Program-made: the position numbers and the translations under genes
Shown: piece after piece, positions 1,354 through 56,942 of the stretch
Numbering within the stretch: the stretch's first letter is position 1
Layout of the letters: each line of letters opens with the position of its first letter
Notes under the pieces: model-generated
What the model saw: the letters and a program-made list of their open reading frames with translations, nothing else
What the model was told of the DNA's origin: nothing
The model's database searches: none
Origin: Balamuthia mandrillaris
Taxonomy: Eukaryota
Assembly: GCA_031835245.2 (NCBI GenBank)
Contig: JAVKOQ020000093.1
Span: 124,001 to 180,945, forward strand
Direction: 5' to 3'
Length of the DNA stretch: 56,945 bases

Positions 1354-2537
1354 AAAAATTGGATTTCAAAGAGATAACACCGTGTTAAAAGGCTCAAACA
1401 AACTATTGGACAATATGATGAATTTGTTGGATAACGAACCTTCTTTTTTGGCCTCATTTCTGTTGGACTCCATTCGTTGCCTTCGCCTTCCCTATGCTGC
1501 CCGTTCTGCCATCGGCACTGTATTGCAATCCTTTCGCATGGAAGATTTAGTGTACTTTAAATCTCTCTCTCTCTCTCTCTCTGTCTTTGTTATTCTTATT
1601 GGGCGCCGTACTATAGATATGCAGTATTACTCGCCGATGGTCAACTTGTAAGCCTTGTGTGCCTTAAGAAACACGTACTTCATCCTCATGGTTGTAACTC
1701 TCTTCTCGTTTCTTCAACTTTTGGTCAAACAGCCATAAGCTCACTTTGTCTTTTTTTTAAAAATTCGAATAGACTTTCATCTTATTCTCAACTTTATCAA
1801 TTCTTCGCCTTCAATTTATGCCAACGGGGCGTCCACGGTGCCCATCTGCCTTCCCAAATTCAACGATCGGGGTTACCTCCACTCCTACGTATGTTACCTG
1901 GTAAAAGGCGTGCGCTTGCTTTTGATTGCCACCAAAGCAGGCAACCTTGAGCATGGTATCTTTATTCTCGCTTTTTCTCTTATTCTCTTGTTTGTAACGT
2001 TGTTTTTGCTTTTTGCAGGCAAAAACCAAATAGAGAAAGGTTTGGCTGCAGTGGGAGCACTGCGGAGCATTGCAGAGGCACAAGAGAAACGCTATTATAA
2101 CGTGGATGATGTTGGAGTATCCATCAAGTCGCTGTTGCTGCACTTCCTTTACAAGGACAAACGGCTGAGTCAGTTCACATCACCCGCGTTGGAACCACCT
2201 TACAACGTTCCATCGGTTAGTTGTTTGTCTGCTTCTCTGCTCTTTTTACTTACTGAAATGATGTGCATAGGAGAGGCAGCGGCTGTATCGATTGTATGAA
2301 CGAGTACATCACACGGTGAACATGACAGGGAGCGGCAAGGAAGGACCTCACAAGATTTACTATCACATAAGCGCCAGGGAGAGCGTGCTGGCGTGGGTCA
2401 CCCAAGGCTTCGAGCTTTACGCCACCTTTGGGCCGTTGGTGCCAAAGGCCGCTTCCATAAAAGCTTGCAACGAGTTGCTTCGCTGGCTACGCGGCGAAGA
2501 GGAAAACTTATTTATGTTGGACTCTCTAACCTGGTAA
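1..2537 (+). CDS. MON1: Vacuolar fusion protein Mon1 (Mon1-Ccz1 Rab7 GEF subunit); multi-exon, 5' end probably outside the window
   Basis: Exon peptides KHIFIMSSAGKPVYSR|YGDE, LEYIHSQIISSLT, FDIRDL, PICLPKFNDRGYLHSYV, LLHFLYK...SQFTSP and AWVTQGFELYATFGPLV are Mon1 longin-domain motifs. The frame is open from position 3. Stop at 2535-2537. Confidence 0.93.
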
Positions 2538-2708
2538 AAACTAACACACAAACAAGACGAAAGAAAACCAGAGAAGATGAAGAATGGTTGGAGGTTATTT
2601 TTTTCAAAAGAGAAAGTTACAAAAAAAGTACAGAGTGTACACACAAAAAGAAAGTGACTTGAGCGTTCAACCAACCACCTTGCATCACACAAGGTTTGCT
2701 TTTGTTTT

Positions 2709-5700
2709 TCAGTCACTTGCATAGTCACTGTCGTCAGAACTGCTGAGGAAGCCCTTTTCTTCGACTTGCTCAGCGGAGTGGGATACCTGAGGCAAAACCT
2801 GAACCGCACCCGCGCCGGCCTTTTGCATTGGCGGCAAGCTCCTCTTCCCTTCGGCAAATTGCCTTTGCTGCTCCTCATCCAACGAAGCAGCTCTGTCCAA
2901 CTCGGGGTTGAATGCTGAAGAGGCTGTTATTTATAGGAGGAGAGAGATGAGTTTGAGCCGAACGTCAATGCAGACATGAATAGGTACCTGAGAATTCATC
3001 ATGGGAGTGTGCTCGCCTAGGCTTTTCTCCCGAGGGAGGAACCTGCAAAGCCGATCCATTAGAACCAGAGGGGCGGCGTTGAGACCCGTCGCCATGCGTG
3101 CCCGAGTCCTGAGGTGGTGCATGAGGTCCCGCTGCGTGTGGTGCGTATCCTTGTTGTTGTGGAGGATACATGGCAGCTTGAGGAGGATAGGCCATAGGAT
3201 AGCCACCTGCTTGAGGTGGATAGTAGGGATGTTGTTGCGGGTGGTAGCCTGGAGGCATATATCCTTGTGGAGGATAGCCTTGTTGAGGGAGAAAACCCTG
3301 CGGTGGCACGCCATATGGGCCGTTAGAGGCTGCGAGCGGATAGGGTTGTTGTGGTTGTTGTGGCTGCTGCTGTGCTAATGGAGGTTGGTGGAATCCTTGC
3401 GGAGGAGACAAAGGGGTGGTAGCGTCTTGGCTAGATTCGCCGTTGACATCCTCCGCTCCTTGGTCGTGCGCATAATATTGTTGAGGAATGGCGGCGTTGG
3501 TCTGTGGGTTGACGCTAAAGTCTACATCGCGCAAAAGGATGGGCTCACCAAAGCTTGGCAGAGAAACAATGTCCCCTGGGTAACGCACGGATTGTTTCTT
3601 TACCTCAAGGCCTCCACGTCTTAGATTTTGTGAACAGAAAACAAACAGCAACCAATAAAACGTCAGATATGTTTGATACAAGGTGATGTAATAGGGGAGT
3701 GATAGGCAGGACTTACTTGAGAAGCGTTGTTGTGAACTTGGCATCCAACAAATCTATGAACTCGGCTTTCTGAGAAGAGGACTTTCCAAAGTGTCCGTAA
3801 CACTCCAACAAAGTCAACATTGCTGGATCCACTCGCTTTTGTTGAAACTCGCGCAGCATTTGCTTGTTCAAAAACTCTCTCTGGCCGTGTACTTCCCACA
3901 TGTAATCCATCATGGCCTGATTTTGAGGGATAGCGTTCTTGAGTGGCACCCACCATATCTTCGTACCATGGAACTGATGAACTCGTTCAAAGAAACGGAA
4001 AAGACAAACGCCTAACATTTGGAAAGAATATGTGTCAACCAGAGAACGAAGAGAGAGCAAAACCAAAAAAAAAAATACAAACCAGAAATAGGTTTTTCGA
4101 CAAAAGCGTCCAAAAACTTATCTGTGTTCCTGCTAATTTCCAAAATATAGAGATCCTCTCTCTTCGTCCATTTGTTGGGTAGACGAAACACCACCCCTAC
4201 GTGAGAGTAGTTCGAGTTGGAAGAAAGTTTGTTGATGGAATGCAGAAAACCGATGCCGGAGTAGGCGATGAGGTCTCCGGTCTTGAACCTATCAATGTAA
4301 TCATCGTAAAAGAAAATCTGTTGGCCTTTTTCGTGCACAGGTCTTGTTTCCTATATGGGTAATGTTTTTCGTTCCAACGGTTAAAACGGGAGACAAGGAA
4401 AAAACAACAAAAGAAACCAAGAAAAAGAAAAGAAAACAGAAAAGAGAAAGCTCAGTTGACAACTGTTCACAGCACTAAAAGTTTTGAATGGGGTTGTACG
4501 GCCCCTCTCAGACCGCCCGACGTTGTGCAACTCATCATAGCAAACAAAAACATATACTTTTCGCCCTCCTATAAGAAAGGAGTGCACCACTATCATCATC
4601 ATCCTCCGTATAAGAGAAACGATTTGGCGGTTTTGAGTGCGATTCCTTTCCCTCTTCCTGTTCATTGTGGGTTTAAACTATGCACAACCACTGCACAACC
4701 ACTGCACAACTTGACGAGGAAACCACAATGGCGGAGAAGAAAAGAGAGACACGCAGAGAAGAGAGAGAACAAAGAGAGAACAAAGAAGAGAGAAGAGAGA
4801 AGAGAGAAGGGAGGTACCGGAGAGGTGGAGTAAACGTAGCGAACGTGGATCTTGCCAGCAGCTTTCTCCTTTTTGCCGCGGGATTCCAGGTCCAGCCAGA
4901 GGTCGACCACCTCCTCCTCCTCTGGGCCGTCGCCGCGCCACTGGCTGCTGCGAAAGATGGTGGCATGGCCAAAGGGCACATCGGAGCCCAGTTTCTTCGT
5001 CTTGTAGAGCTCAATCGTGAGGTCGAATGACGTCTCCACCGCACTTTGGTTTTTGTTATTTATTTGTGGTCTTGGTAAGCCAGGAGAAAGCCAAAGAACA
5101 ACAACAGGAACAAGAAATAGAAGAAAGAAACAAAAATAAAAGAAGCAAAGAAGAAGGACAGAACCCCAAAAAAAAGGAGAACAAAAGAGGAGGAGGAGGA
5201 GGAGGAGGAGGAGGAGGAGGAGGAGGAGAAAGAAAAGAAGGTAACAAAAAGGAATTAAAAAAAAGAGGTGCATACAAGAGAAAGTACTCGTTCCAAACGG
5301 GCTGCTGGGTTTTCTTCTGGACAGAGGTCGTCTGCTTCTGTTTGCCCCATTTCAAGCTGCAATAAAGAGAAGGTGCTCCTATTCATGTTGTTATTGCTTT
5401 TGTTATTATTTTTGTTGGATGAAAAAAAAAAGTTGCCGTTCACTGTACGGCACAAAGGAAAAAAAAAGAACTGCTTTACCTCCTTGCGAGACTTCAGAGC
5501 TGCAACCCACCACTAAGACGGTTCTTGTTAGCAAAGAAGAAGAAGAAGAAGAAGAAGAAGAAGAAGAAGAAGAAGAAGAAGAAGAAGAAGAAGAAGAAGA
5601 AGAAGAAGAAGAGGACATAAGAAAGAAGAACACAAAACAAAAAAAAAAACCAAACCCATCACAGCCAATTTTTGCTTGGTCCCATCCCAAATGTGCTGCA

Positions 5701-21967: not shown

Positions 21968-22200
21968 CGCTTCTCCCACAAACTTTTTTTGTTTGGGCGG
22001 GAAAGCAACCACCCGGTGGAGCTATGTACGTGGTGGGTGGTGGGTGGTGGTGGGGTGGGTCCAATGCCCTGAAAGAACCTCCTTCTCCTCCTCCTCTTGG
22101 TGGTCTTGCTTCCTCTCCTGTTACCCTTTCTCGGGTCGACGCACTCCGCAGCCATGTCGTCTTGAAGTGATGCAAGTCCCACCCCAAGGGGCCTGGCGGC

Positions 22201-22330
22201 GAGAAGGAAGGTTGTTTTGGCGGGAAACATGCTCATTGGCCCAAAAGACTAATGTCGTGATTTCTTTTTTCGTTGTCCTTAGATCTTATGATCTTTGCGC
22301 CGCCTCCTTCTCCCACGTCTCTGAAGGCAA
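22201..22330 (-). mobile_element. Solo, internally inverted copy of the left end of the Fanzor mini-element
   Basis: 22201-22305 matches 48007-48112 with one substitution and one indel. 22305-22330 is the exact reverse complement of 47989-48014. Confidence 0.75.
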
Positions 22331-27872: not shown

Positions 27873-29711
27873 TTACTTCTGGTGGGTGTTGCGCTGTTGC
27901 TGTACACGAGACTGACGACGGCGACGACGATTACGACGACGCCGAAGTTGCTGTGGATGAGGAGAGGACCTGCTGCTGGTAGATGAGGATGCCCGGCAAA
28001 CTGCAACCTGATCCTTTGCATCAGATTCATCAGCGGCGGCATCAGGTAGTTGGTCTGCTCTTTTACGTTTGTGTGTGAAGGCAGACGGAGAGGAAGAGGA
28101 AGACGAGGGAAGGGAATGAGATATTGGAGGTAGGTCGGTTGTAGAGGGCGTGCAGGGTGGAAGCCACCCCAAGTCGATGACTCTCTGGCCCTGAACGTCG
28201 TACTTGCGGGCCTTGAACCACGACTTACGGGTGGTGGTGTCCAGTCTCGTTTGGAGCGTGCGGTGACCCTTCTGAGATATCTCCCTGGATATCTGGTTTG
28301 ACAAATCCGCGATGCGAGCATGTAAAGACTCCTTCTTCTTCATCTCCTCCTCCGAGGTGCCTGTCTCGTAGTGTCTTTCGAAAGAGGAGGAGCAGTGCTT
28401 CTCCAGGTATCGTTTTAGGATGAGCACTTCAGCAGCACAGTCATAGCAGTGGTCCAAGCCAGCCACAACTTCTTGGTCTTGTGGCTGCTGTTGGTGGGTG
28501 GTAAGGCCGTGTTGGTAATAGCTCACTCTGGTGGCGGTATTGAAGTAAAACATTTGGTCACAGTACTGCAGGTTATCGTAGTGGGTGTATTCCAGCACGT
28601 CCCGCACAACTAGGCGAGACTCAGTGGTGGTCTGCGGACCCCACACAGGCAGGTAGAGCTCTCCCTTCAGATAGCGGTAGTGGCCTTCCCGCCATGGCAA
28701 TCTAAACTTTAGCATGCTGGCCTTTGGTCGTAGCACTTCCACCTTGCAACAACAACATCATAACACAAACACAATAAGAGCTTGTGAGTGCTTCTTGTGG
28801 ATGGAAATGGTTAGCCAGTTAGTTACCCATTCCATTTGCATGCCCATGTCACAAGCTACACTCGCTTCCACCTCCTCTTCGGTCATGACTCTGGGGTCCA
28901 CCGTTCTTACGTCGCTAATGAAGAGGAGTGTCTCTCCCTTCTCCATCAGCTGCTCTCTCAACTGCACGGCCACCTCCTTGGTGAAGAAGCGCTGGTGGAG
29001 GAGGATCCTTTCCGAAGGGACCACATTAAACTCGGCCGGGTCGTAGAGAAGGAAGCGCTTCACTTGGGGGAAGAGCCTCGCTAAGTAGGGGAGGTGAGTG
29101 CCAGGAGCAGCACCCACATAGAGCACAACCACCTTCTGCTCTTCCTCCCCATGCTGCTGAGCAATAAGGTGCTCCGTAAGGAACTCGATCTCGGAGAGGA
29201 GCAACTTTCTTTGTCCCCAGTGGTTAACGGTTCTCAGGTGGTGAGGGATCTTCCAGTATTTGCGTTGCGGCGCATCGCGTCGCAGCACACGCTGGAGCTC
29301 CTCCAACGGGTACACCGTAAACTTGCCGTTGAGGTATTTGCCCTGAACAACACCAGCATAACAGTCATTCCCCAGGTTCTCGAGAAGAAGGATAAGAGCG
29401 GGAGCTGCATGGTGCAGCTTGCTACCTGTTCTAAATGGGGTTCGGCAGCAAAGTCAATCTCTTCCGGTGAGAGCTGCTGTTTGCATGCATTGTAATGACG
29501 GGCACGGCATGCCCATGGGCAGCAGCAGCGTAGAAAAAACATGTGGAAGCAACGTTAAAAAAAAAACCAAAAGATTTCAAAAAAAAAAAAAAAAGAAAGA
29601 AAGAAAAGGGCAAGTAAGTGGCCGCACAGTGGAGAGGAGCTTCCCGGGTGTCCCCTCCCCTTCCTCCCCTTGCTTCTCTTGGGTGTGGGGCGCCGCCGCA
29701 GCAGCAGCCAT
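27873..29711 (-). CDS. Cap-specific mRNA 2'-O-methyltransferase of the poxvirus VP39 / poly(A)-polymerase regulatory subunit family; multi-exon
   Basis: HWGQRKLLLSEIEFL, VLYVGAAPGTHL, LFISDVRT, SMLKFRLPW, YLPVWGPQTTTESRL, DHCYDCAAE. The start codon is inferred through two small introns. Confidence 0.88.
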
Positions 29712-35274: not shown

Positions 35275-35441
35275 GAGCTTTGTTGAGGGCAAGGCTGGAG
35301 CCTTTTTATCATTGCATGCTCCATGATTCTATTGAGCAAATAAACAAGTACAATGTTGTGGAGAATAAACAGGCTGAAGAGGTTGAGAAAGCGGGAGGTG
35401 GCGCCAAGATCACAAGATGAAACGAAAAATCGTGCGATAAG

Positions 35442-46643: not shown

Positions 46644-46747
46644 CTCCCCTCCGAGCGGCTTGTGCAGGTGGTTGTCGTTGTTGTTCAAGGCAGCGGAGGA
46701 GGAGCAGGCAGCGCTGCTGCAGAGAACGTGCAGGAGGGGTGCCACAA

Positions 46748-46780
46748 AGGCGGGGCAAAGATCATAAGATCTAAGGACAA
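46748..46780 (+). repeat. 33-bp copy of the Fanzor-element terminus, inverted relative to 48080-48112
   Basis: AGGCGGGGCAAAGATCATAAGATCTAAGGACAA matches the reverse complement of 48080-48112 with 1 mismatch. Confidence 0.85.
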
Positions 46781-46923
46781 ACCCTCGAATATCCTGCCTT
46801 TCCGCACTATTTCTCACCAACCCGCCACCCCTCATGTCAATATTATTATCACAGAAAGAGAGGGCGAAAATTTACCCCCACTGAAGGGCCCCTTCTCTGC
46901 TTTTTCTCCCCCTACCGCCAAAG

Positions 46924-47321
46924 CTGACTTCCTTAAGAAAGCTCCCATGTTTTTGAAGGGCCTATATGATGAGGAGCTTCTTGATGAAGAACCCATTCTT
47001 GAATGGTTCACCTCCAGCAAATCTATGGACAAGGCGTTCCGCAAGGCTATCCAGCCCTTCTGCCAGTGGTTAAAGTACATTATCCCCCCCCCCAAAAAAA
47101 AAAAACACCCCATATTGATTGATCTGTTTTACAGGGAAGCTGAGGAGGATGGTTCTGAGGAAGAAGAGGAAGAGGAAGAGGTGGCAGAGCCTACTCCTAC
47201 TAAGTTTGCAAAACCTGTTGCGCCCTCCCCTTCCGCCGCGCCAGCTGCTTCGAGCAATGGCCATAAGCACGAAGATGCTGAAGAAACAGAGGACCTTGAT
47301 GATGAAATTGATGCCTTGTAA
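46924..47321 (+). pseudogene. EIF5: Orphan 3' fragment of eIF5 (W2 domain plus acidic tail); two exons, no 5' part
   Basis: KKAPMFLKGLYDEELLDEEPILEWF...FRKAIQPFCQWL|.EAEEDGSEEEE, ending in DLDDEIDAL*. Intron 47075-47134. The sequence upstream is the divergent DUF72 gene, leaving no room for the N-terminal domain. Confidence 0.75.
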
Positions 47322-47374
47322 AAGGAATCAATTCTTTAGAGGCCTAAGGAATTTATGTTGCCGTGAAACATCTA

Positions 47375-47540
47375 AGGCGGCGCCAAGATCAAGCCTGACC
47401 TGTTTCACAACCTTAATTTTCCAACAAAACAGTTTTTTGAACCAACACAACAAAAACCGTAGCAATCAAATTTTTTGTTTTGCGTGTTGCTCAGGCTCCT
47501 AAAGTACCACGTTTTTGCAGGGAACGCCAAGGTTTGGCTC
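47375..47540 (-). ncRNA. Candidate Fanzor omega-RNA scaffold
   Basis: Lies between the Fanzor fragment and the right terminus. Nested inverted repeats: AGCCTGA (47392-47398) / TCAGGCT (47491-47497) enclose the hairpin 47443-47489 and a weaker one at about 47419-47441. Confidence 0.5.
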
Positions 47541-47541
47541 C

Positions 47542-47721
47542 TTAAACTACGGGTTGGGGGCACCGAAAGGTCTTGTGGACTTGGCCGCACTTGCCGCAGG
47601 TCTTTGAAGTGTATTCCTCATCGCAGAGGCAGACCGTACAGGACGGAAATTGCTGGGCCTTGTTGAGGAGCCTCTGCCTGAAGCGATAGTGGGACCAGGT
47701 GAGCATGGCTCTGGCCGTTTG
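47542..47721 (-). pseudogene. Fanzor (eukaryotic TnpB) C-terminal RuvC/zinc-ribbon fragment
   Basis: QTARAMLTWSHYRFRQRLLNKAQQFPSCTVCLCDEEYTSKTCGKCGQVHKTFRCPQ fits the Fanzor pattern TARxMLxWSHYxFRQRL...ExYTSKTCxxCG...FxCP. The N-terminus and the final DRD.N motif are missing. Confidence 0.85.
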
Positions 47722-49397
47722 AACTGTAAGGAAGGGGGTCGCGCCACTACTTCTTCTACTCCCACTGCTACTCGGAAAAGAAGAGCGAGAAATACGGTGG
47801 TGCGTGGAGCTTTGTGGATGTGTGTCTGTGTTTACTTTTGAAACGAAAAGAAAAGAAGAGAAGAGAAGAAAAGAAAACGAGTAGCAGAAAAGTGTCAAGG
47901 CGACTGACGAGTACCAAAAGTTTATTGGCGGCAGCAGCAGCATGAGCATCCATTCCGTACACCCCACCCCACAACCCACCCTACCACTTTGCCTTCAGAG
48001 ACGTGGGAGAAGGAAGGGTTGTTTTGGCGGGAAACATGCTCATTGGCCCAAAAGACTAATGTCGTGATTACTTTTTTCGTTGTCCTTAGATCTTATGATC
48101 TTTGCGCCGCCTTAGGTTTTGTCCGTAAGGTTTTGTTTCGGTTTCCGTGCTAAATGCCACCGTAGGCCCCTGGGGTGGCATTTATTGTCGACAAAAAACA
48201 AAGAGAGAGTGAAGCCAAGCCGAGCTGCTTATGAAAGGGAGCGGCGAGCAAAAAAGAAACGAGAACGGGAGGAGAAGGAACAAGAGGAACAGCAGCGACT
48301 GAAAAAAGGCGAGAACAAAAGAATGCTTCAGACCGTCGTTGCCGAGCACGGCGGTTATCCAAAGCACCTTTCACCCAAGACCAACTACAGGAGGCTGAAA
48401 ATGAACACAGGCTGGGTTTTCCTTCAGGTTTGTCTTTATCTTTGCCTTGCCCTTGCTCTTTAACCTCACCCTCTTCACCCTCAGTTTCACCTTCACCCTC
48501 GTCCTCGTCCTCGCCCTCGCCCTGAGGAGGTCGGCGAAGAGGAGGTCAGCGAAGAGGAGGTTGGCGAAGAGGTCAATGAAGAGGGTGACAAAAAAGTTGT
48601 TGGCGAGTGGCTCAGGAAGGAGGGTACCATACATGCTGGGATGCTGAAGGAGCCTGCTGGTGAGTGACGAAGCAAGGCAGGGAGTGCAAACGAAGGTATG
48701 GTTAAAGAAGAGGAGGAGGTAAGCAAAGAGCTCAGTGACCCAGCAGCTTTCTTTTGCTGCGCTTTCTTTTCCTCCTCTTCTTTTAGGCACTTGTTTTGGT
48801 GGCGTTGCTTTCTTTCTTTCTGGAGCTGCCTTTTTCGCCGTGTCTTGGCTTCTTGTTCCTCCATTTCTTGTTGTTGCTGAGCTCGTTGACGCCTTTTGCT
48901 CTTAGCCTGCTGCTTCCGTCGTTTTTCTTTCTGGAGCTGGCACTGTTCCTTTGAGGACAAGGGCGACGGCGACGGCGAAGTAGAGGGCAAGGACAAGCAT
49001 AACTTGCAGAAGAAGCTGCTCGGCGACGCCGTTTTGATGCAGCTTGTTGTGCTCGCCTTCTTTGAAGTTTCTCTTGCGCTTTTTGTCGCTGCTGTTCCTC
49101 TCTTAACCTACCACACACAGCAGGCACCAAAACAACATCTCTCATCAAGAGCATTTCGTGAACAACTTGTTCACAGTTTTGTTTTGAAGGGATCTTAATC
49201 AACCACAACAATACCACTAAAAGCACAAAAGCGTCACCGCTGTGTTCAATGTTGGAAGGATGGAAAGGATAGGAAAACTTCTGTGGTTTGTGATGTTTGT
49301 GAAAAGCATGTTTGTTGTGCTTGTTTTCCTGTCTTTCAATTGTAGCGCCGCAGGGTGGACACAAGTATTGAGGAGTCATGTTTTTTCCCACAGAGCC

Positions 49398-49480
49398 AAA
49401 GGGGAGAAGCGTGACGTGTTAACTTGGTTCTGTGGAAGAAACATGAATTTAAAGGGGAATAGCGTGACGTGTTAACTTGG
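49398..49480. repeat. 30-bp direct repeat, 2 copies
   Basis: AAAGGGGAGAAGCGTGACGTGTTAACTTGG at 49398-49427 and AAAGGGGAATAGCGTGACGTGTTAACTTGG at 49451-49480. Confidence 0.9.
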
Positions 49481-52284: not shown

Positions 52285-55200
52285 TTACATTACTTCCAAA
52301 GACTGATAAAATGCAGAAGAACTTCCATGCTTCCAACTTGCTCTTGCTGCCCATAATCTCCAGACTCGTTTACAACTTTTCTTACATTGTTCCATCTCTT
52401 GAGCTCTGTTACATTTCTTTCCACTTGACAGGAGCTTTGTTGTACAGTCTTCAATAATCAGCTTTCTGACTTGTTCTTCACTTCCATTGTCCACACTCCA
52501 GTTTCTAAAGCGATCTTCCCAAAGGTTAGGACACCTTAACAGGAAGTGTTCTGCTGTTTCTTCCTCAGCATCACATGCAGGGCACTTGCTATCCACCTCA
52601 GACTGCTGAATGGATCCCCACTTTTTTCCAATAGGCAGTCCACCACAGCGAATAGCATTCATCAAACGTTCTTTCCTTGGGTTGGTAATCACTAAGCTCC
52701 GTTGTTGTCCAACCAAACATCTTCCATTTGTCAAGAAGTTATGCCATAGCCATGCTCTTGTTCCTCTTTCTCCTTCAGCTGCATACTCCATCTTGGCTAC
52801 TCGAGTTAAGGCCCTCATCCTCTTGGCTTTCTTTTCAACAACTGTCGTTCCGGCACCTCCCTCACCTTCATTCTTCTCCCCTTCCTCTTCACTTGCTTGG
52901 CTTACCTCTTCAAGTAGCTCAAAGTGGCCATCTTGCCTCTCAGCATGATGAATTACTGCTTGTCTTTCCAACTCACAGTAGGCCTTGATGGTCAACCAGC
53001 CCAATTCTGCTCTACAAACCCCCGCCACAGTCCTTCGATGAACTTGCAATACACTTCTTGCTGTCTCATTCCACACAGCTTCGATCTTCTTCCACCATGA
53101 TTTGGAAAGCTCTGTCATGCATAGTCCATATGACAAGGTAGACTTGACAATAGCCTCTGCAACAATCTGGGCAGTGCGTGTACCAAGGCCTTGAGCAATG
53201 GCTCCCCGCTGCCTAAGGCTGTAGAGGGCTTGCTTGGCCTTGGTGATCCTCTCCTTGGCATGAGTTGTCCATTCCCCACTTTCTTCAAACCACAGTCCCA
53301 GGTACTTGGCCTCCTTCACCCGTTTCCCAGCCTCCCCCTTCAGTCTCCACTCTTGAAAATGAGCCTTCTTTCCTTGTACTAGCACCACTGATTTCTTTGC
53401 ATTGAACTGAAGTCCCAGAGCATTCACTGCCTCCACTGCTACATTCAATCTTCTCTGAAGCTCAAATGGGTCGCTGGCCACCACTGCCAAGTCATCTGCA
53501 AACAACAAGCAAACATTCCTTGCTTTATCTCATCTTTCCTTCTCCTCTGCAGCTTGTAGCTTTCTTGCCACCACATCAATGTATACATTGAACAAGAATG
53601 GAGACAAAACTCCTCCTTGCTTAACTCCTCTTTCCACCAGAAATTCCTCTGAAAGCTGCCCATTCATGCGAATAACACTCGTCATACCATGGTACCACTC
53701 TGTAATGATACCCCCTGCTGCCTCTTCTGCTCCTCTTTTGCGTAATGTCCTTGCCAGTATGTCATGGTCAAGCATGTCATATGCCTTGCTGATATCCAAC
53801 AGAGCAATATAGGTACGTTCTTTGCTTCTCTTCATCAGGCATTTCTTCAACCGCCACACCTGATCCATGACTCCCCTTCCTTTTCTAAATCCCCCCTGGC
53901 AATTACTTATCCACCCTTGCTCTCTTGCTTGTATGTTCAATTGTACCAAGATAGCTCCTTCAAACACCTTGGCTGCATTGCATAGGAGAGTAATACCTCT
54001 ATAGTTTGCTGGATTCTGGGGATCTCCTGCCTTATGCAAGGGAATAACCACCCCCTGTTTCCACTCCTTGGGGATTATGCCTTGGTTCTCAATGACCTTG
54101 ATCAGCGTCCAAGTTGCATCTTGCACATGTTTGCCTCCATACTTCATCATTTCCCCATCAATATTGTCCACCCCAGCTGCTTTGCCCACCCTCAATCTTT
54201 TCCTCCATGCAAGATTAAAACTCTCCTTCTTAAGCCAGTTACTACCAGACCACGGCAGTCCTTCTGGACCTGCTTCCTCTCGATGCAAGCTCCCAATGGA
54301 AGAATCCTTCCTTCCCAGCTTTGCCCAATGTTCCTTGAAGGCTGCCGTGCTACCGTGGTGCTCCCTAACTGCTTTGGGCTCTGCTCTACGCTTTGCCACT
54401 ATCCTCCACATGTTGCCGATCCATTTCTGCATTTCCTTGATGTTCTCTTGTCTTTTCCACTTCATCCAGTCCCATTTGTTGGCTCTCCACAACTTCACAA
54501 ACCTTTTCCTGAGTTCCACAAATTCCTCTCTGGCCTATCCATCATTCTTTCCTTCTCTTAGCCACTGAGCATGGGCTATCACTACCTGCTTGTTCAAGGA
54601 TGTTAACTCTGCTGTCCACCATGGCTTCCTTGCCCTGCTCGTTGTTGCTCCTATCAGTCTCCTTTCTCTACCAAACCATCTCATTGCACAAACCCACAAT
54701 CCTTTTTTCCACTTGCTCCAAAGATCTTCAACAGTAGCTGTTCCCTCCCGTGTTTTCTTGACCATGGCCTTCCATTCCTCTCCTTTGAAGAAACGCTTGC
54801 ACCCGCGTTTGTACTCCCTCCACCTCCTCTTGCGATCTTCCTCCGAGTAGGACTTCCACTTCCATCGTTCCATCCAAACCCCGCCACAATTATCTGCTGG
54901 GTCCTTCAACTCGACTACCAGTGGTCGATGATCGGTCCAAGCTTGCCATCTGTCACCAACTACCTTGCCCGGCCATCTCCATGCTACCACATAGTCCACA
55001 ATGCTCTTTCGTTTTCCAGCTCTCCATGTAAATACTGGCGCTTCCTCTTCGAGCTGAGGCAACGAGAGGGCCAGCCTTTTGAAAGCCTCCACCAACACCT
55101 TTCCTCTCGTGTTGTAAGTAGATTCACCTCTACCATTCCATCCCTTTCCAACCCTGGCGTTCCAATCCCCTCCAATAATCAGGGGTCTTCCTTCCTTGAC

Positions 55201-55590
55201 CACGTCCAGGATTCTTTTCTCAATCGCAGCCAAGGTGACCTTAAAGTTGTCCACGGTACCTCCTGGAGGGAGATACACTATACCGATTATAAAGATGCAA
55301 CCCTGTCCCGCCAGTTCCACCCAAGTGGAGTTGGGTGTTCGCCACTCTTTCCTTTCTCCGATGTTCCCCTTGAAGCCCTCTCGAACAAAGAAACCTGCGC
55401 CACCCCTTCCATAGCCACTCCTCCCTGGAGCAGCCCCTCCACCCATCCACCGATACCCCACCAATCGAGGGGCAACCATCCTCCTATGTTCGCACACTCC
55501 AATAATGTCAAATTGCTTACTGTCAGCCCAACAGCTGACCAATTCCTCTTGTCCCCAGCCCCTAGAGTTGACAAACGCTACTGAAGTCAT
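52285..55590 (-). pseudogene. LINE ORF2 (apurinic endonuclease, reverse transcriptase, C-terminal zinc finger) with two in-frame nonsense codons
   Basis: APE: FVNSRG, IIGVCE, VYLPP, GGDWNARVG, SIVDYV, TDHRPL. RT: KAAGVDNI, NYRGITLL, QGGFRKGR, LDISKAYD, GVKQGGVLSPFLFN, LFADDL, KYLG. Zinc finger: CPACDAEEETAEHFLLRCP. Stops are TAG 54535-54537 and TGA 53530-53532, and all three pieces share one frame. Confidence 0.93.
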
Positions 55591-56942
55591 TGGGTCTCCT
55601 CTCCTTCCTCCTCCACAATGTCAGACCAGTTGGCAGCACCATGATACTCCTCCTCCGCCAGCGCGATGCTTGAGAGTTCCAAAGAGCTGTCCAAGGCCAC
55701 TGTTCCAACATTCTCCTCCTTTTCCTTCTTCTTCTCCATCTTTCTTTGCTCTTTAGGCTTCCACAGCGGTTTACCTTCATTCTTGGCTTCTTCAATTCGG
55801 GCTTTGCCCACCCACCCGCGGGTAAAAGCATACAGCCTGGCTCTTTCCGCAATAATGTCTTCGGCAGCCTGGGCCGTCTCCAAAGTAACTCCCCAATGCT
55901 GCGTGCCATTCTTCTCTCCTACTTTCCACACTCCGACGTGCTTGAGCCCCAGCTCGAAGATCCTCTCACTTACCTTTTCCTTCTTAAGGTCCTTACCGCT
56001 CACCACAATCGATCTGCCCTCCACCGCCCCTACCTTGGAGTAGGGACTGGCAAAGCCATACTTTGGTTTTACTGTAGACCAATAGTTCGGGGCGGTTACT
56101 GTATCTTTGGTCCACGTCCTCCTGTATATGTTGGAGTTATCCTGCCAACATATCCCTTGTTCCTTTGCCATTTCTTCCTTCCAGTATTCCAAGCTTGGCG
56201 CGCTGACCGTAGTTGCCGGTGGAGGGAAATTCCTTTCCGCAGTAATCATATCACACCGCGGAGCTGATCCGACCACCTCCGCGTAAGACCGTTGGGAACC
56301 CAGAGTAAGGCCGCCTTTGGTACTATTTGCACTTCCTTTTTCCACCATAAGATTATTGATCTCCTTGTCGAGGGATTCAATCAGGTCCCTGAATCGTACA
56401 ATCACTGCGAGTGAGAGTACGCCTGCCTCGGAGAGCTTACCACACTCGTGAGAAACACGGCTAATACAATCAAACCGCAGCGCCACTTGACTATTGGTTC
56501 GCTCCTTAACGCCGTCTGCACTGACTGAGTCCGAATCAATCTTCCCCTTGGGCACAACACTTGTCCCTTCCTCTCGGCGGGGCGAATCCGCTACCGAGTT
56601 ACACTGATCCTCTGCCCCTCTGTCGTCCTCCTCCTTTTGGTTCACCCTGGGAGAAGGAATCTTGACTGTGGTAGTGTTCAGGTGCCCATACTTTTCCACC
56701 GCAAACTTGAACGCTTCCTCCAGAAACTGATTTAGCTTGTCCCCTTTGACAAAACACTCGGGGATCTTTGTCTCTTTTTGCACAGCTTGCAAAGCGGGCT
56801 TCCACGAACGATTACCGTTTAGGGTCCCCAGTCTAAGACGTTCCTTCATGGCCAGATCCACCCATCGACGTAGGACCTGTTCCCTCTCCTGACTGTCAAT
56901 CAATTCAGTGCTCTTGCGTGGCAGAGTCCTATTTTTCCGCAT
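55587..56942 (-). CDS. LINE ORF1 (putative nucleic-acid chaperone), possibly 5'-partial
   Basis: 451-aa ORF directly upstream of ORF2, containing SYAEVV (a common ORF1 motif) and a coiled coil. Its TGA overlaps the ORF2 ATG. Confidence 0.75.
   Translation of the reverse strand: MRKNRTLPRKSTELIDSQEREQVLRRWVDLAMKERLRLGTLNGNRSWKPALQAVQKETKIPECFVKGDKLNQFLEEAFKFAVEKYGHLNTTTVKIPSPRVNQKEEDDRGAEDQCNSVADSPRREEGTSVVPKGKIDSDSVSADGVKERTNSQVALRFDCISRVSHECGKLSEAGVLSLAVIVRFRDLIESLDKEINNLMVEKGSANSTKGGLTLGSQRSYAEVVGSAPRCDMITAERNFPPPATTVSAPSLEYWKEEMAKEQGICWQDNSNIYRRTWTKDTVTAPNYWSTVKPKYGFASPYSKVGAVEGRSIVVSGKDLKKEKVSERIFELGLKHVGVWKVGEKNGTQHWGVTLETAQAAEDIIAERARLYAFTRGWVGKARIEEAKNEGKPLWKPKEQRKMEKKKEKEENVGTVALDSSLELSSIALAEEEYHGAANWSDIVEEEGEETQ

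What the first reader, a model, noticed from the sequence alone, without database searches (positions are those of the whole stretch)
47373..48114. Miniature Fanzor (eukaryotic RNA-guided OMEGA nuclease) element with TIRs and TA duplication
Seen: a 738-bp segment whose ends are inverted repeats (AGGCGGCGC[C/A]AAGATCA), flanked on both sides by TA, encoding on the minus strand TARAMLTWSHYRFRQRLLNKA...DEEYTSKTCGKCG..HKTFRCP. Established: this is the C-terminal RuvC/zinc-ribbon region of TnpB-derived Fanzor nucleases, in which the ExYTSKTC glutamate is the rearranged catalytic residue. Fanzor1 genes ride in eukaryotic TIR transposons, often with TA TSDs. Inference: this is an internally deleted, non-autonomous member of a Fanzor family in this amoeba. 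It has kept both ends, a promoter and the RNA-coding tail, so an intact Fanzor may exist elsewhere in the genome.
Basis: partly seen in the sequence, partly recalled or inferred. Interest (0 to 1): 0.9.

Follow-up and report, generated by a model that had tools for sequence, protein, structure and literature searches.

The report
Broken Fanzor2 transposon, false inverted end
This is a broken, shortened copy of a multi-copy jumping gene for an RNA-guided DNA-cutting enzyme (Fanzor2), matching genes of the amoeba Balamuthia; other copies end inside its apparent right inverted repeat, so the family likely moves like bacterial IS607 elements rather than like a classic cut-and-paste transposon.

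Summary
The sequence is as described: 738 bp, a 17-nt inverted pair with 1 mismatch, TA on both sides, and a Fanzor C-terminal peptide. The peptide is 48/48 identical to Balamuthia mandrillaris 'transposases'; 11 gene models of this family are on record. The protein is Fanzor2, not Fanzor1. In two runs, 8 contigs stop matching at 47392-47395 and go on into unlike flanks, so 47375-47391 lies outside the shared end, where the guide would be. Both shared ends carry GG(C), the IS607 pattern. TA at the left end recurs in other copies and is likely a target motif (TAWGG), not a duplication. This copy is nuclease-dead: two of three RuvC motifs are gone, with deletions, filler DNA and an inverted 60-bp piece. 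No transposase, empty site or omegaRNA expression was found. None of the 11 gene models is complete in frame. Three contigs of one run may be further TIR-like copies. Verdict: a new member of a known kind (IS607-type Fanzor2), not found in print for Balamuthia in my searches.

The parts
48112..48114 (-). TAA just outside the left end; likely part of the target motif/TAM (TAW before GG), not a target-site duplication
   Evidence: run X2: 6 contigs match through 48114 and then differ (agreement 0.53); 4 contigs stop at 48111 and their consensus reads TAT here (agreement 0.58). The TAM role is inferred.
47788..48111 (-). Left end and 5' region; starts GGC, AAGATC twice within 30 nt of the end
   Evidence: 98% copy at 22201-22305; very high summed contig depth in 4 of 4 runs; 4 of 11 parent gene models hit this region in tblastn; motif positions
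47728..47787 (+). Inverted 60-bp fragment of the Fanzor 5' coding region (KEGGRATTSSTPTATRKRRA), sharing 5-7 nt with the minus-strand 5' region at its end
   Evidence: Same peptide in P0109 and P0111; loose ends before 47728 and behind 47787 run into parent coding sequence on the + strand; translation
47720..47727 (.). 8-nt filler at the deletion junction
   Evidence: Parent-like sequence stops at 47719 and restarts at 47728 (table 7)
47575..47718 (-). Fanzor2 fragment, 48 aa: end of RuvC-II with the alternative Glu and the first cysteine pair
   Evidence: 48/48 identical to P0001, P0107 and P0114; PF07282
47551..47574 (-). KTFRCPQP: zinc-ribbon remnant after an in-frame 18-nt deletion; the next deletion removes the last cysteine and the RuvC-III aspartate
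   Evidence: Loose ends before 47575 in X2, X5 and X12; parent C-termini in P0110 and P0113
47393..47550 (-). Right end shared by the family, ending TCAGG(C); predicted 3' part of the omegaRNA scaffold, cut at its 5' side and with small deletions against other copies
   Evidence: X1 depth 56 over 47340-47389, then 801-1732 over 47390-47429; 8 contigs leave at 47392-47395; other copies carry extra letters at 47432, 47466 and 47493. Terminal pairing with 47491-47497 in MFE and centroid, whole-fold z 0.80
47375..47391 (+). Apparent right TIR: an inverted copy of the first 17 nt of a left end, lying in the flank (guide position), outside the family's right end
   Evidence: Covered at flank depth only in X1; bin arithmetic fits a start at 47393 better than 47375 in X2, X5 and X12
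47373..47374 (+). TA beside the inverted left-end piece; likely that piece's own target motif (TAAGG)
   Evidence: Sequence; inference from the left-end flanks
46914..47321 (+). 3' part of a host W2-domain gene; its stop lies 72 nt from the element's right end
   Evidence: PF02020 E 4.4e-11; a spliced contig of X4 runs from this gene into the element to 47550

Best explanation
This is a nuclease-dead, internally deleted copy (47393-48111, 719 bp, minus strand) of a multi-copy Fanzor2 family matching Balamuthia mandrillaris genes, whose shared ends carry GG(C) rather than inverted repeats, so the family likely moves by IS607-type recombination. Shown: family membership, the Fanzor2 protein type, the right end at 47393/4, the broken gene, and the same right junction in several samples. 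Inferred mechanism: a serine recombinase (TnpA), supplied in trans or since lost, excises a circle and inserts it at a TAWGG(C) site without duplication. Full-length copies make an omegaRNA from the right end plus flank; it cuts the empty site (TAM predicted TAWGG, against TCAGG at the element's own end) and homologous repair restores the element. Error-prone repair (short-homology deletions, filler, template-switch inversions) likely broke this copy and set an inverted 17-nt left-end scrap beside its right end, which mimics a TIR with TA.
For: Family: top hits are B. mandrillaris 'Transposase' P0001 and P0002; 10 members in P0001's cluster; 48/48 identity to 3 of the 8 models that hold the start motif. 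Fanzor2: PDB sequence search best hit 9B0L E 6.5e-19, no Fanzor1 among 13 hits at E<=1. Fold search: 9B0L E 1.2e-18, TM(target) 0.68, against SpuFz E 2.6e-5, TM 0.23 (model mean pLDDT 61.6, core mostly 70-90). DPG, Pro and alternative Glu present. Right end: of 19 contigs laid in X1, 2, 3 and 1 leave before 47392, 47393 and 47395 with unlike letters; 2 of 2 in X12 leave before 47393; 7 of these 8 keep GGC. Left end: 10 X2 contigs leave at 48111 or 48114. IS607 termini contain GG and make no duplication (PMC6188088 introduction); the TAM ends in the core and differs from the right end upstream (10.1101/2023.11.20.567912 passages). 29 of 30 tested ORFs at viral-contig relatives are IS607 TnpA. 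Two more inverted or truncated left-end pieces and one variant lie in this window.
Against: No TnpA was found: not in the window or in the 11 parent models, and no Balamuthia name among the 120 of 4402 and 15 of 15 hits shown (weak tests). No empty site was seen. Three X2 contigs (depth 31.6, 25.2, 13.3) join onto 47372 or 47377, and how far they run on is not shown (table 5c); they could be further copies with the repeat at the right end. Contigs are not copies one for one, and 264 loose-end rows and 1 were not shown. The left flank 48117-48193 is almost uncovered in all 4 runs, no listed contig spans the element, and X4 continues differently after 47550 at this locus, so the copy as a unit is not independently verified. 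Whether the core is GG or GC is unresolved. TAM, cleavage and homing are untested.
Confidence: 0.78

Rival explanations
1. A TIR-bounded, TA-duplicating miniature element (a Fanzor2 captured by a Tc1/mariner-like cut-and-paste transposon, 'Fanzor2*'), at least as a minor subfamily: the first reader's architecture with the clade corrected.
For: The 17-nt inverted pair with TA on both sides is real. Fanzor2* elements exist in an alga and in molluscs (PMC10711439 section 24). Three X2 contigs join onto 47372 or 47377. TA recurs outside left ends.
Against: 8 contigs in two runs end at 47392-47395, and X1 depth over the repeat equals flank depth. Bin arithmetic favours a start at 47393 in 3 of 3 runs checked. 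4 X2 contigs lack the terminal A of the left repeat. TA is palindromic, and the symmetry runs on to CTA/TAG, as an inverted copy would give. No empty site was seen.
Confidence: 0.1
2. The 738-bp unit is partly an assembly or single-strain chimera: a real right junction joined to pieces of other copies.
For: No listed contig spans the element. The left flank has depth 1.26, 0, 0 and 0. X4 carries other letters after 47550 at this locus.
Against: The right junction is bridged without differences in X1, X10, X2, X4 and X5. Filler and short shared stretches at the joints look like DNA repair (inference). Another parent model, P0110, also has a large internal deletion.
Confidence: 0.07
3. A kept 'ghost' guide locus: the right end makes an omegaRNA whose guide matches the family's own left ends and steers full-length Fanzor to them (self-restraint or self-breakage).
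For: The 17-nt piece sits exactly at the guide position and is unchanged in samples S1-S4. Ghost omegaRNAs work for SpuFz1 (PMC10432273 passages).
Against: On the strand this guide would match, no GG motif precedes the match in the left end. The scaffold has lost its 5' part and 10 nt against other copies, and folds no better than shuffles (z 0.80 and 0.15). The RNA-like contigs over it belong to the host gene on the other strand.
Confidence: 0.04

Closest known systems
IS607-type Fanzor2 elements: Acanthamoeba polyphaga mimivirus Fanzor2 (PDB 9B0L) and the ACa-1/-2, ISvMimi group (PMC3627910 passages)
   Same: Best sequence and fold match; DPG plus alternative Glu; no shared TIR or TSD; HTH_OrfB + OrfB + zinc ribbon
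   Different: No TnpA seen in the parent models or the window; N-terminal C2H2-like motif in 2 of 11 models (Pfam zf-C2H2 E 0.015, below the cut-off) and an acidic low-complexity tract; this copy is dead
Bacterial IS607 elements with TnpB (IS607, IS1535, ISXfa1, CboIStron)
   Same: GG at both junctions, short repeated motif near the left end, fixed base after the right end, end-pairing in the right-end RNA
   Different: Eukaryotic nuclear host; predicted A/T-rich motif TAWGG(C) rather than the TGGG of CboIStron; transposase not found
Fanzor2* of Chloropicon primus and molluscs (PMC10711439 section 24)
   Same: Fanzor2 protein; this one copy looks TIR-bounded
   Different: There, TIR and TSD are family features; here the right repeat is outside the shared end
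Ghost loci of the SpuFz1 element (PMC10432273 passages)
   Same: Ends kept, most of the gene lost
   Different: Those have conserved 30-nt IRs, 134 loci and working RNAs; this is Fanzor2, individually broken, with no RNA function shown

Membership tests
Fanzor (TnpB family) | RuvC1 DPG motif | tested here: met
   In 8 of 11 parent models; deleted from this copy (tblastn covers only the C-terminal part and the 5' leader)
Fanzor (TnpB family) | Alternative Glu six residues before the zinc finger; Pro or Gly at the canonical site | tested here: met
   E587/C593/P534 in P0114; the Glu motif is in the window peptide; definition
Fanzor (TnpB family) | Complete D-E-D triad and C4 ribbon in one frame (active nuclease) | tested here: not met
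   This copy keeps only the Glu; 0 of 11 annotated models hold all motifs. Whether those frameshifts are real or assembly errors could not be told.
Fanzor (TnpB family) | omegaRNA-guided, TAM-dependent DNA cleavage | not testable with these tools
   Needs biochemistry
Fanzor1 | Closer to Fanzor1 proteins, with an enlarged REC region | tested here: not met
   No Fanzor1 among 13 PDB sequence hits; fold match SpuFz TM(target) 0.23 against 0.68 for Fanzor2
Fanzor2 | Closest to Fanzor2 and IS607/pro-Fanzor TnpBs | tested here: met
   In a 74-protein FastTree the Balamuthia pair lies inside a 34-row group (SH-like 96) that holds two TnpA-linked proteins; that tree has no Fanzor1 or Fanzor2* reference, so it does not test the split.
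IS607-type element | No family TIR or TSD; matching GG-containing core at both junctions | tested here: met
   Right end TCAGG(C) in 7 of 8 diverging contigs; left end begins GGC, 10 X2 contigs diverge outside it
IS607-type element | Serine recombinase TnpA encoded by the element | tested here: not met
   No TnpA profile hit in the window's six frames or the 11 models. Full-length copies could not be read as DNA, so an overlapping frame there is untested. Filed as a non-autonomous, IS607-like derivative, not as an autonomous IS607.
IS607-type element | Empty site with a single core | tested here: inconclusive
   No empty allele among 7 runs laid
IS607-type element | Right-end RNA with stem-loops and a pseudoknot at the 3' end | tested here: inconclusive
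   Terminal TCAGG pairs with an internal CCTGA about 100 nt upstream, but z is 0.80 and no covariation test was run
TIR transposon with TA TSD (Tc1/mariner-like, Fanzor2*) | TIR shared by family copies at both ends | tested here: not met
   three unexplained X2 contigs are the only possible exceptions
TIR transposon with TA TSD (Tc1/mariner-like, Fanzor2*) | TA duplicated on insertion (empty site with one TA) | tested here: inconclusive
   No joint 47374-48115 among the joints listed
TIR transposon with TA TSD (Tc1/mariner-like, Fanzor2*) | Cognate DDE transposase with the same ends | not testable with these tools
   No genome held for this window

The most novel reading that the evidence does not exclude
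An IS607-type Fanzor2 caught making terminal inverted repeats out of itself. Breaks 13-15 nt inside left ends (47391/2 here; 48094 in an X2 contig), about where a Fanzor2 would cut if its guide matched its own left end, release short left-end pieces that are re-joined, inverted and with their TA, beside right ends. If the three X2 contigs are further such copies and they move as TIR/TA units, this would be a route from IS607 Fanzor2 to TIR-borne Fanzor2* and Fanzor1 without capture by a foreign transposon.
Probability: 0.07. Interest if true: 0.8.

Novelty: new member of a known kind. Interest (0 to 1): 0.38.

Why it matters
It adds a multi-copy Fanzor2 family in the nuclear genome of an amoeba where I found no published Fanzor. 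The ends give testable predictions for a compact eukaryotic RNA-guided nuclease: TAM TAWGG(C), scaffold end TCAGG(C), and a possible N-terminal C2H2 finger. The family seems to lack its own transposase and leaves inverted end fragments at rearrangement junctions, one near a truncated host gene, so it may reshape this genome. It is also a caution: one copy can fake a TIR plus TA duplication, which matters when Fanzor2* evolutionary intermediates are called from single loci. The copy itself is a dead fragment.

Tried and rejected
No whole genome is held, so copies were judged from public runs only. Empty site: no joint 47374-48115 in 4 runs and no loose end there in 4 runs; this is not evidence of absence. 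The left flank 48117-48193 is nearly uncovered. Expression: no RNA holder was listed. RNA run X19 gave 18 reads on both mate strands from 3% of the run, fading by 47450; they fit the host gene's tail and say nothing on an omegaRNA. Rfam: 13 matches at E<=10, none near its gathering score. The 17-nt pattern in viral contigs gave 14 loci, none with a Fanzor or further similarity: chance. TnpA hunt: no Balamuthia name among the rows shown; only 120 of 4402 near-length hits were visible. The promoter scan is bacterial and uninformative here. The maximum-likelihood tree timed out and FastTree was used. Only this copy's right end was folded; a family-typical right end was not held as a sequence, so it was not folded and no covariation test was done. 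Earlier-finding look-ups by place, DNA and words were empty. Rejected: Fanzor1; TA as a TSD; the right repeat as a family TIR.

Full report
Observation. The letters are as reported. 47375-47391 and 48096-48112 form a 17-nt inverted pair with one mismatch, TA lies outside each, and the span is 738 bp. Five such motifs occur in the window against 0.03 expected. The minus-strand peptide hits PF07282 at E 7.8e-8.

Family and host. A search among longer proteins returned 105 hits of 110 candidates, led by two Balamuthia mandrillaris 'Transposase' models. P0001's cluster holds 10 B. mandrillaris proteins, so 11 models are on record with P0002. The 48-aa core is identical to three of them and 45-46/48 to four more; P0113 has a gap there and three lack the region. 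Several models begin in sequence that lies in this element's left part. The host is inferred from this identity; the window itself is unnamed.

Fanzor2, not Fanzor1. P0001's best PDB sequence match is 9B0L (E 6.5e-19), with no Fanzor1 among 13 hits. The model of P0114 (mean pLDDT 61.6) matches mimivirus Fanzor2 at E 1.2e-18 and SpuFz only at E 2.6e-5. The parents show DPG, Pro at the canonical Glu site, and the alternative Glu six residues before the ribbon, the Fanzor fingerprint of PMC10711439 section 23 and PMC10530073 (passages). I picked 30 ORFs overlapping or adjoining the Fanzor start from 52 of the 79 viral-contig loci; 29 of the 30 pass the IS607 TnpA cut-off. The other 22 loci were not tested. 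In a FastTree of 74 proteins the Balamuthia pair is a long branch inside a group that includes two TnpA-linked proteins; the tree lacks Fanzor1 and Fanzor2* references.

Anatomy. In gene direction the copy holds a left end and 5' region (48111-47788), then an inverted 60-bp piece of the N-terminal coding region (47728-47787), 8 nt of filler, 48 codons of RuvC-II and ribbon, an in-frame 18-nt deletion, 8 more codons, a second deletion, and 158 nt of right end. The breakpoints come from loose ends that run into parent sequence. RuvC-I and RuvC-III are gone, so no nuclease can be made from this copy. None of the 11 annotated models has all motifs in one frame: DPG in 8, Glu plus first cysteine pair in 8, second pair in 2, last Asp in 2. 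I cannot tell decay from assembly error. An intact gene is therefore plausible but not shown.

The ends. On 47280-47556, run X1 has flat depth 56 over 47340-47389 and 801-1732 over 47390-47429. Of its 19 contigs, six leave the window sequence before 47392 (2), 47393 (3) or 47395 (1), with unlike letters (agreement 0.68 and 0.57 in the multi-contig rows). Both X12 contigs leave before 47393. The family's right end is thus TCAGG(C), and the claimed TIR lies in the flank, where the guide would be. Bin depths fit a start at 47393 better than 47375 in X2, X5 and X12: observed 362, 152 and 8; predicted 381, 136 and 8 against 596, 196 and 13. At the left end, X2 contigs leave at 48111 (4) or 48114 (6), and both groups read TA two to three bases outside GGC. 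So both junctions carry GG(C), and TA behaves as a target preference. This fits IS607: GG at the termini and no duplication (PMC6188088 introduction); a fixed base after the right end and a pseudoknot (PMC10711439 sections 25-26); a TAM ending in the core and differing from the element's own end (10.1101/2023.11.20.567912 passages). The predicted pair here is TAWGG against TCAGG. Terminal TCAGG pairs with an internal CCTGA, but the fold is no better than shuffles (z 0.80).

Against this reading. Three X2 contigs join onto 47372 or 47377, with depths of 13-32 where single-copy depth is about 10. Their extent is not shown; they may be more copies with the repeat, a C-variant left end like the one at 35396, or library chimeras. 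X1, from the same sample, shows none. No TnpA was found and no empty site was seen. The left flank is almost uncovered, no listed contig spans the element, and 264 loose-end rows were not displayed. Summed contig depth is not a copy number, so I give none beyond the 11 models.

Age. The right junction (flank, 17-nt piece, right end) is bridged without differences in samples S1 (X1, X2; possibly the window's source), S2 (X4), S3 (X5) and S4 (X10), and by a few reads in S9. In S2 the same contig goes on after 47550 with letters like those of other copies (X12), so the deletion at 47550/1 likely came later than the insertion.

Mechanism. Shown: a dead fragment of a Fanzor2 family with non-TIR ends. 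Inferred from known IS607 biology: excision and insertion by a serine recombinase at a GG-containing core, with Fanzor cutting the empty site and repair restoring the element. Inferred here: error-prone repair produced the deletions, filler and inversions, including the inverted left-end scrap that mimics a TIR. Similar scraps at 22201-22330 and 46747-46780 show that such events are not rare in this window.

Literature. Fanzor plus Balamuthia: 0 papers. No Balamuthia count among the 25 of 310 listed for IS607/TnpB/IS605. (listings only) showed nothing on this family. 'Balamuthia' was absent from the supplements searched: PMC10711439 (1 file), PMC10530073 (2 files) and PMC10432273 (9 files; file 2, a picture PDF, unreadable). 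Figure S3 of PMC10711439 with the Fanzor2* ends is a picture, so those ends could not be compared, and subscription papers are not searched. PMC3627910 and PMC10432273 were seen as passages. IS607-type Fanzor2 is known from Acanthamoeba-associated elements and giant viruses, so this is a new member of a known kind. The piggyBac, retrotransposon and methyltransferase labels under 'noticed in passing' are recalled, not tested.

Verdict. Observation confirmed; interpretation partly supported; interest 0.38.

Noticed in passing
window 22195-22330: A 105-bp left end (98% identical) lies inverted between its own neighbours: GGCGGCG before it, and the next 26 nt of the left end after it in the other orientation. 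It looks like a short template-switch inversion.
   Followed up: partly
window 46747-46780 and 46914: A 34-bp left-end remnant lies 130 bp before a junction at which a W2-domain gene starts abruptly. X2 spans the junction with no difference, while X4, X5 and X12 carry other sequence upstream of 46914-46917 (coding-like in X4), so the rearrangement may be strain-specific.
   Followed up: partly
window 35396-35430: A diverged left-end variant with the same C as the false right TIR; perhaps a second subfamily and a candidate source of the 17-nt piece.
   Followed up: partly
window 48240-49345: A second multi-copy element (high contig depth from about 48240 to the end of the laid stretch at 48800 in 4 of 4 runs). 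It has a cysteine-rich tail at 49199-49342 that recalls piggyBac transposases (recalled; Pfam gave only DUF2180, E 0.029) and a 35-bp direct repeat at 49398/49451.
   Followed up: partly
window 47336: One X1 contig (depth 11.8, against 56 for the window's form) leaves the sequence 37 nt before the claimed terminus and continues with an AATAAA-containing stretch; possibly another allele or paralogue of the host gene's 3' end.
   Followed up: no
P0002, P0111 N-terminus: C2H2-type motif at the start of the Fanzor2; Pfam zf-C2H2 E 0.015, below the cut-off. One paper listing held all four search terms and was about a red alga genome (not read).
   Followed up: partly
L015-L093, about positions 2300-3150: In many viral-contig relatives the IS607 TnpA frame overlaps the first 150-200 codons of the Fanzor/TnpB frame.
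   Followed up: partly
window 52285-55620, minus strand: Three consecutive in-frame ORFs split by stops that read like endonuclease and reverse transcriptase domains of a non-LTR retrotransposon (label recalled, not scanned).
   Followed up: no
window 27873-29453, minus strand: ORFs that recall poxvirus-type cap 2'-O-methyltransferases (label recalled, not scanned).
   Followed up: no
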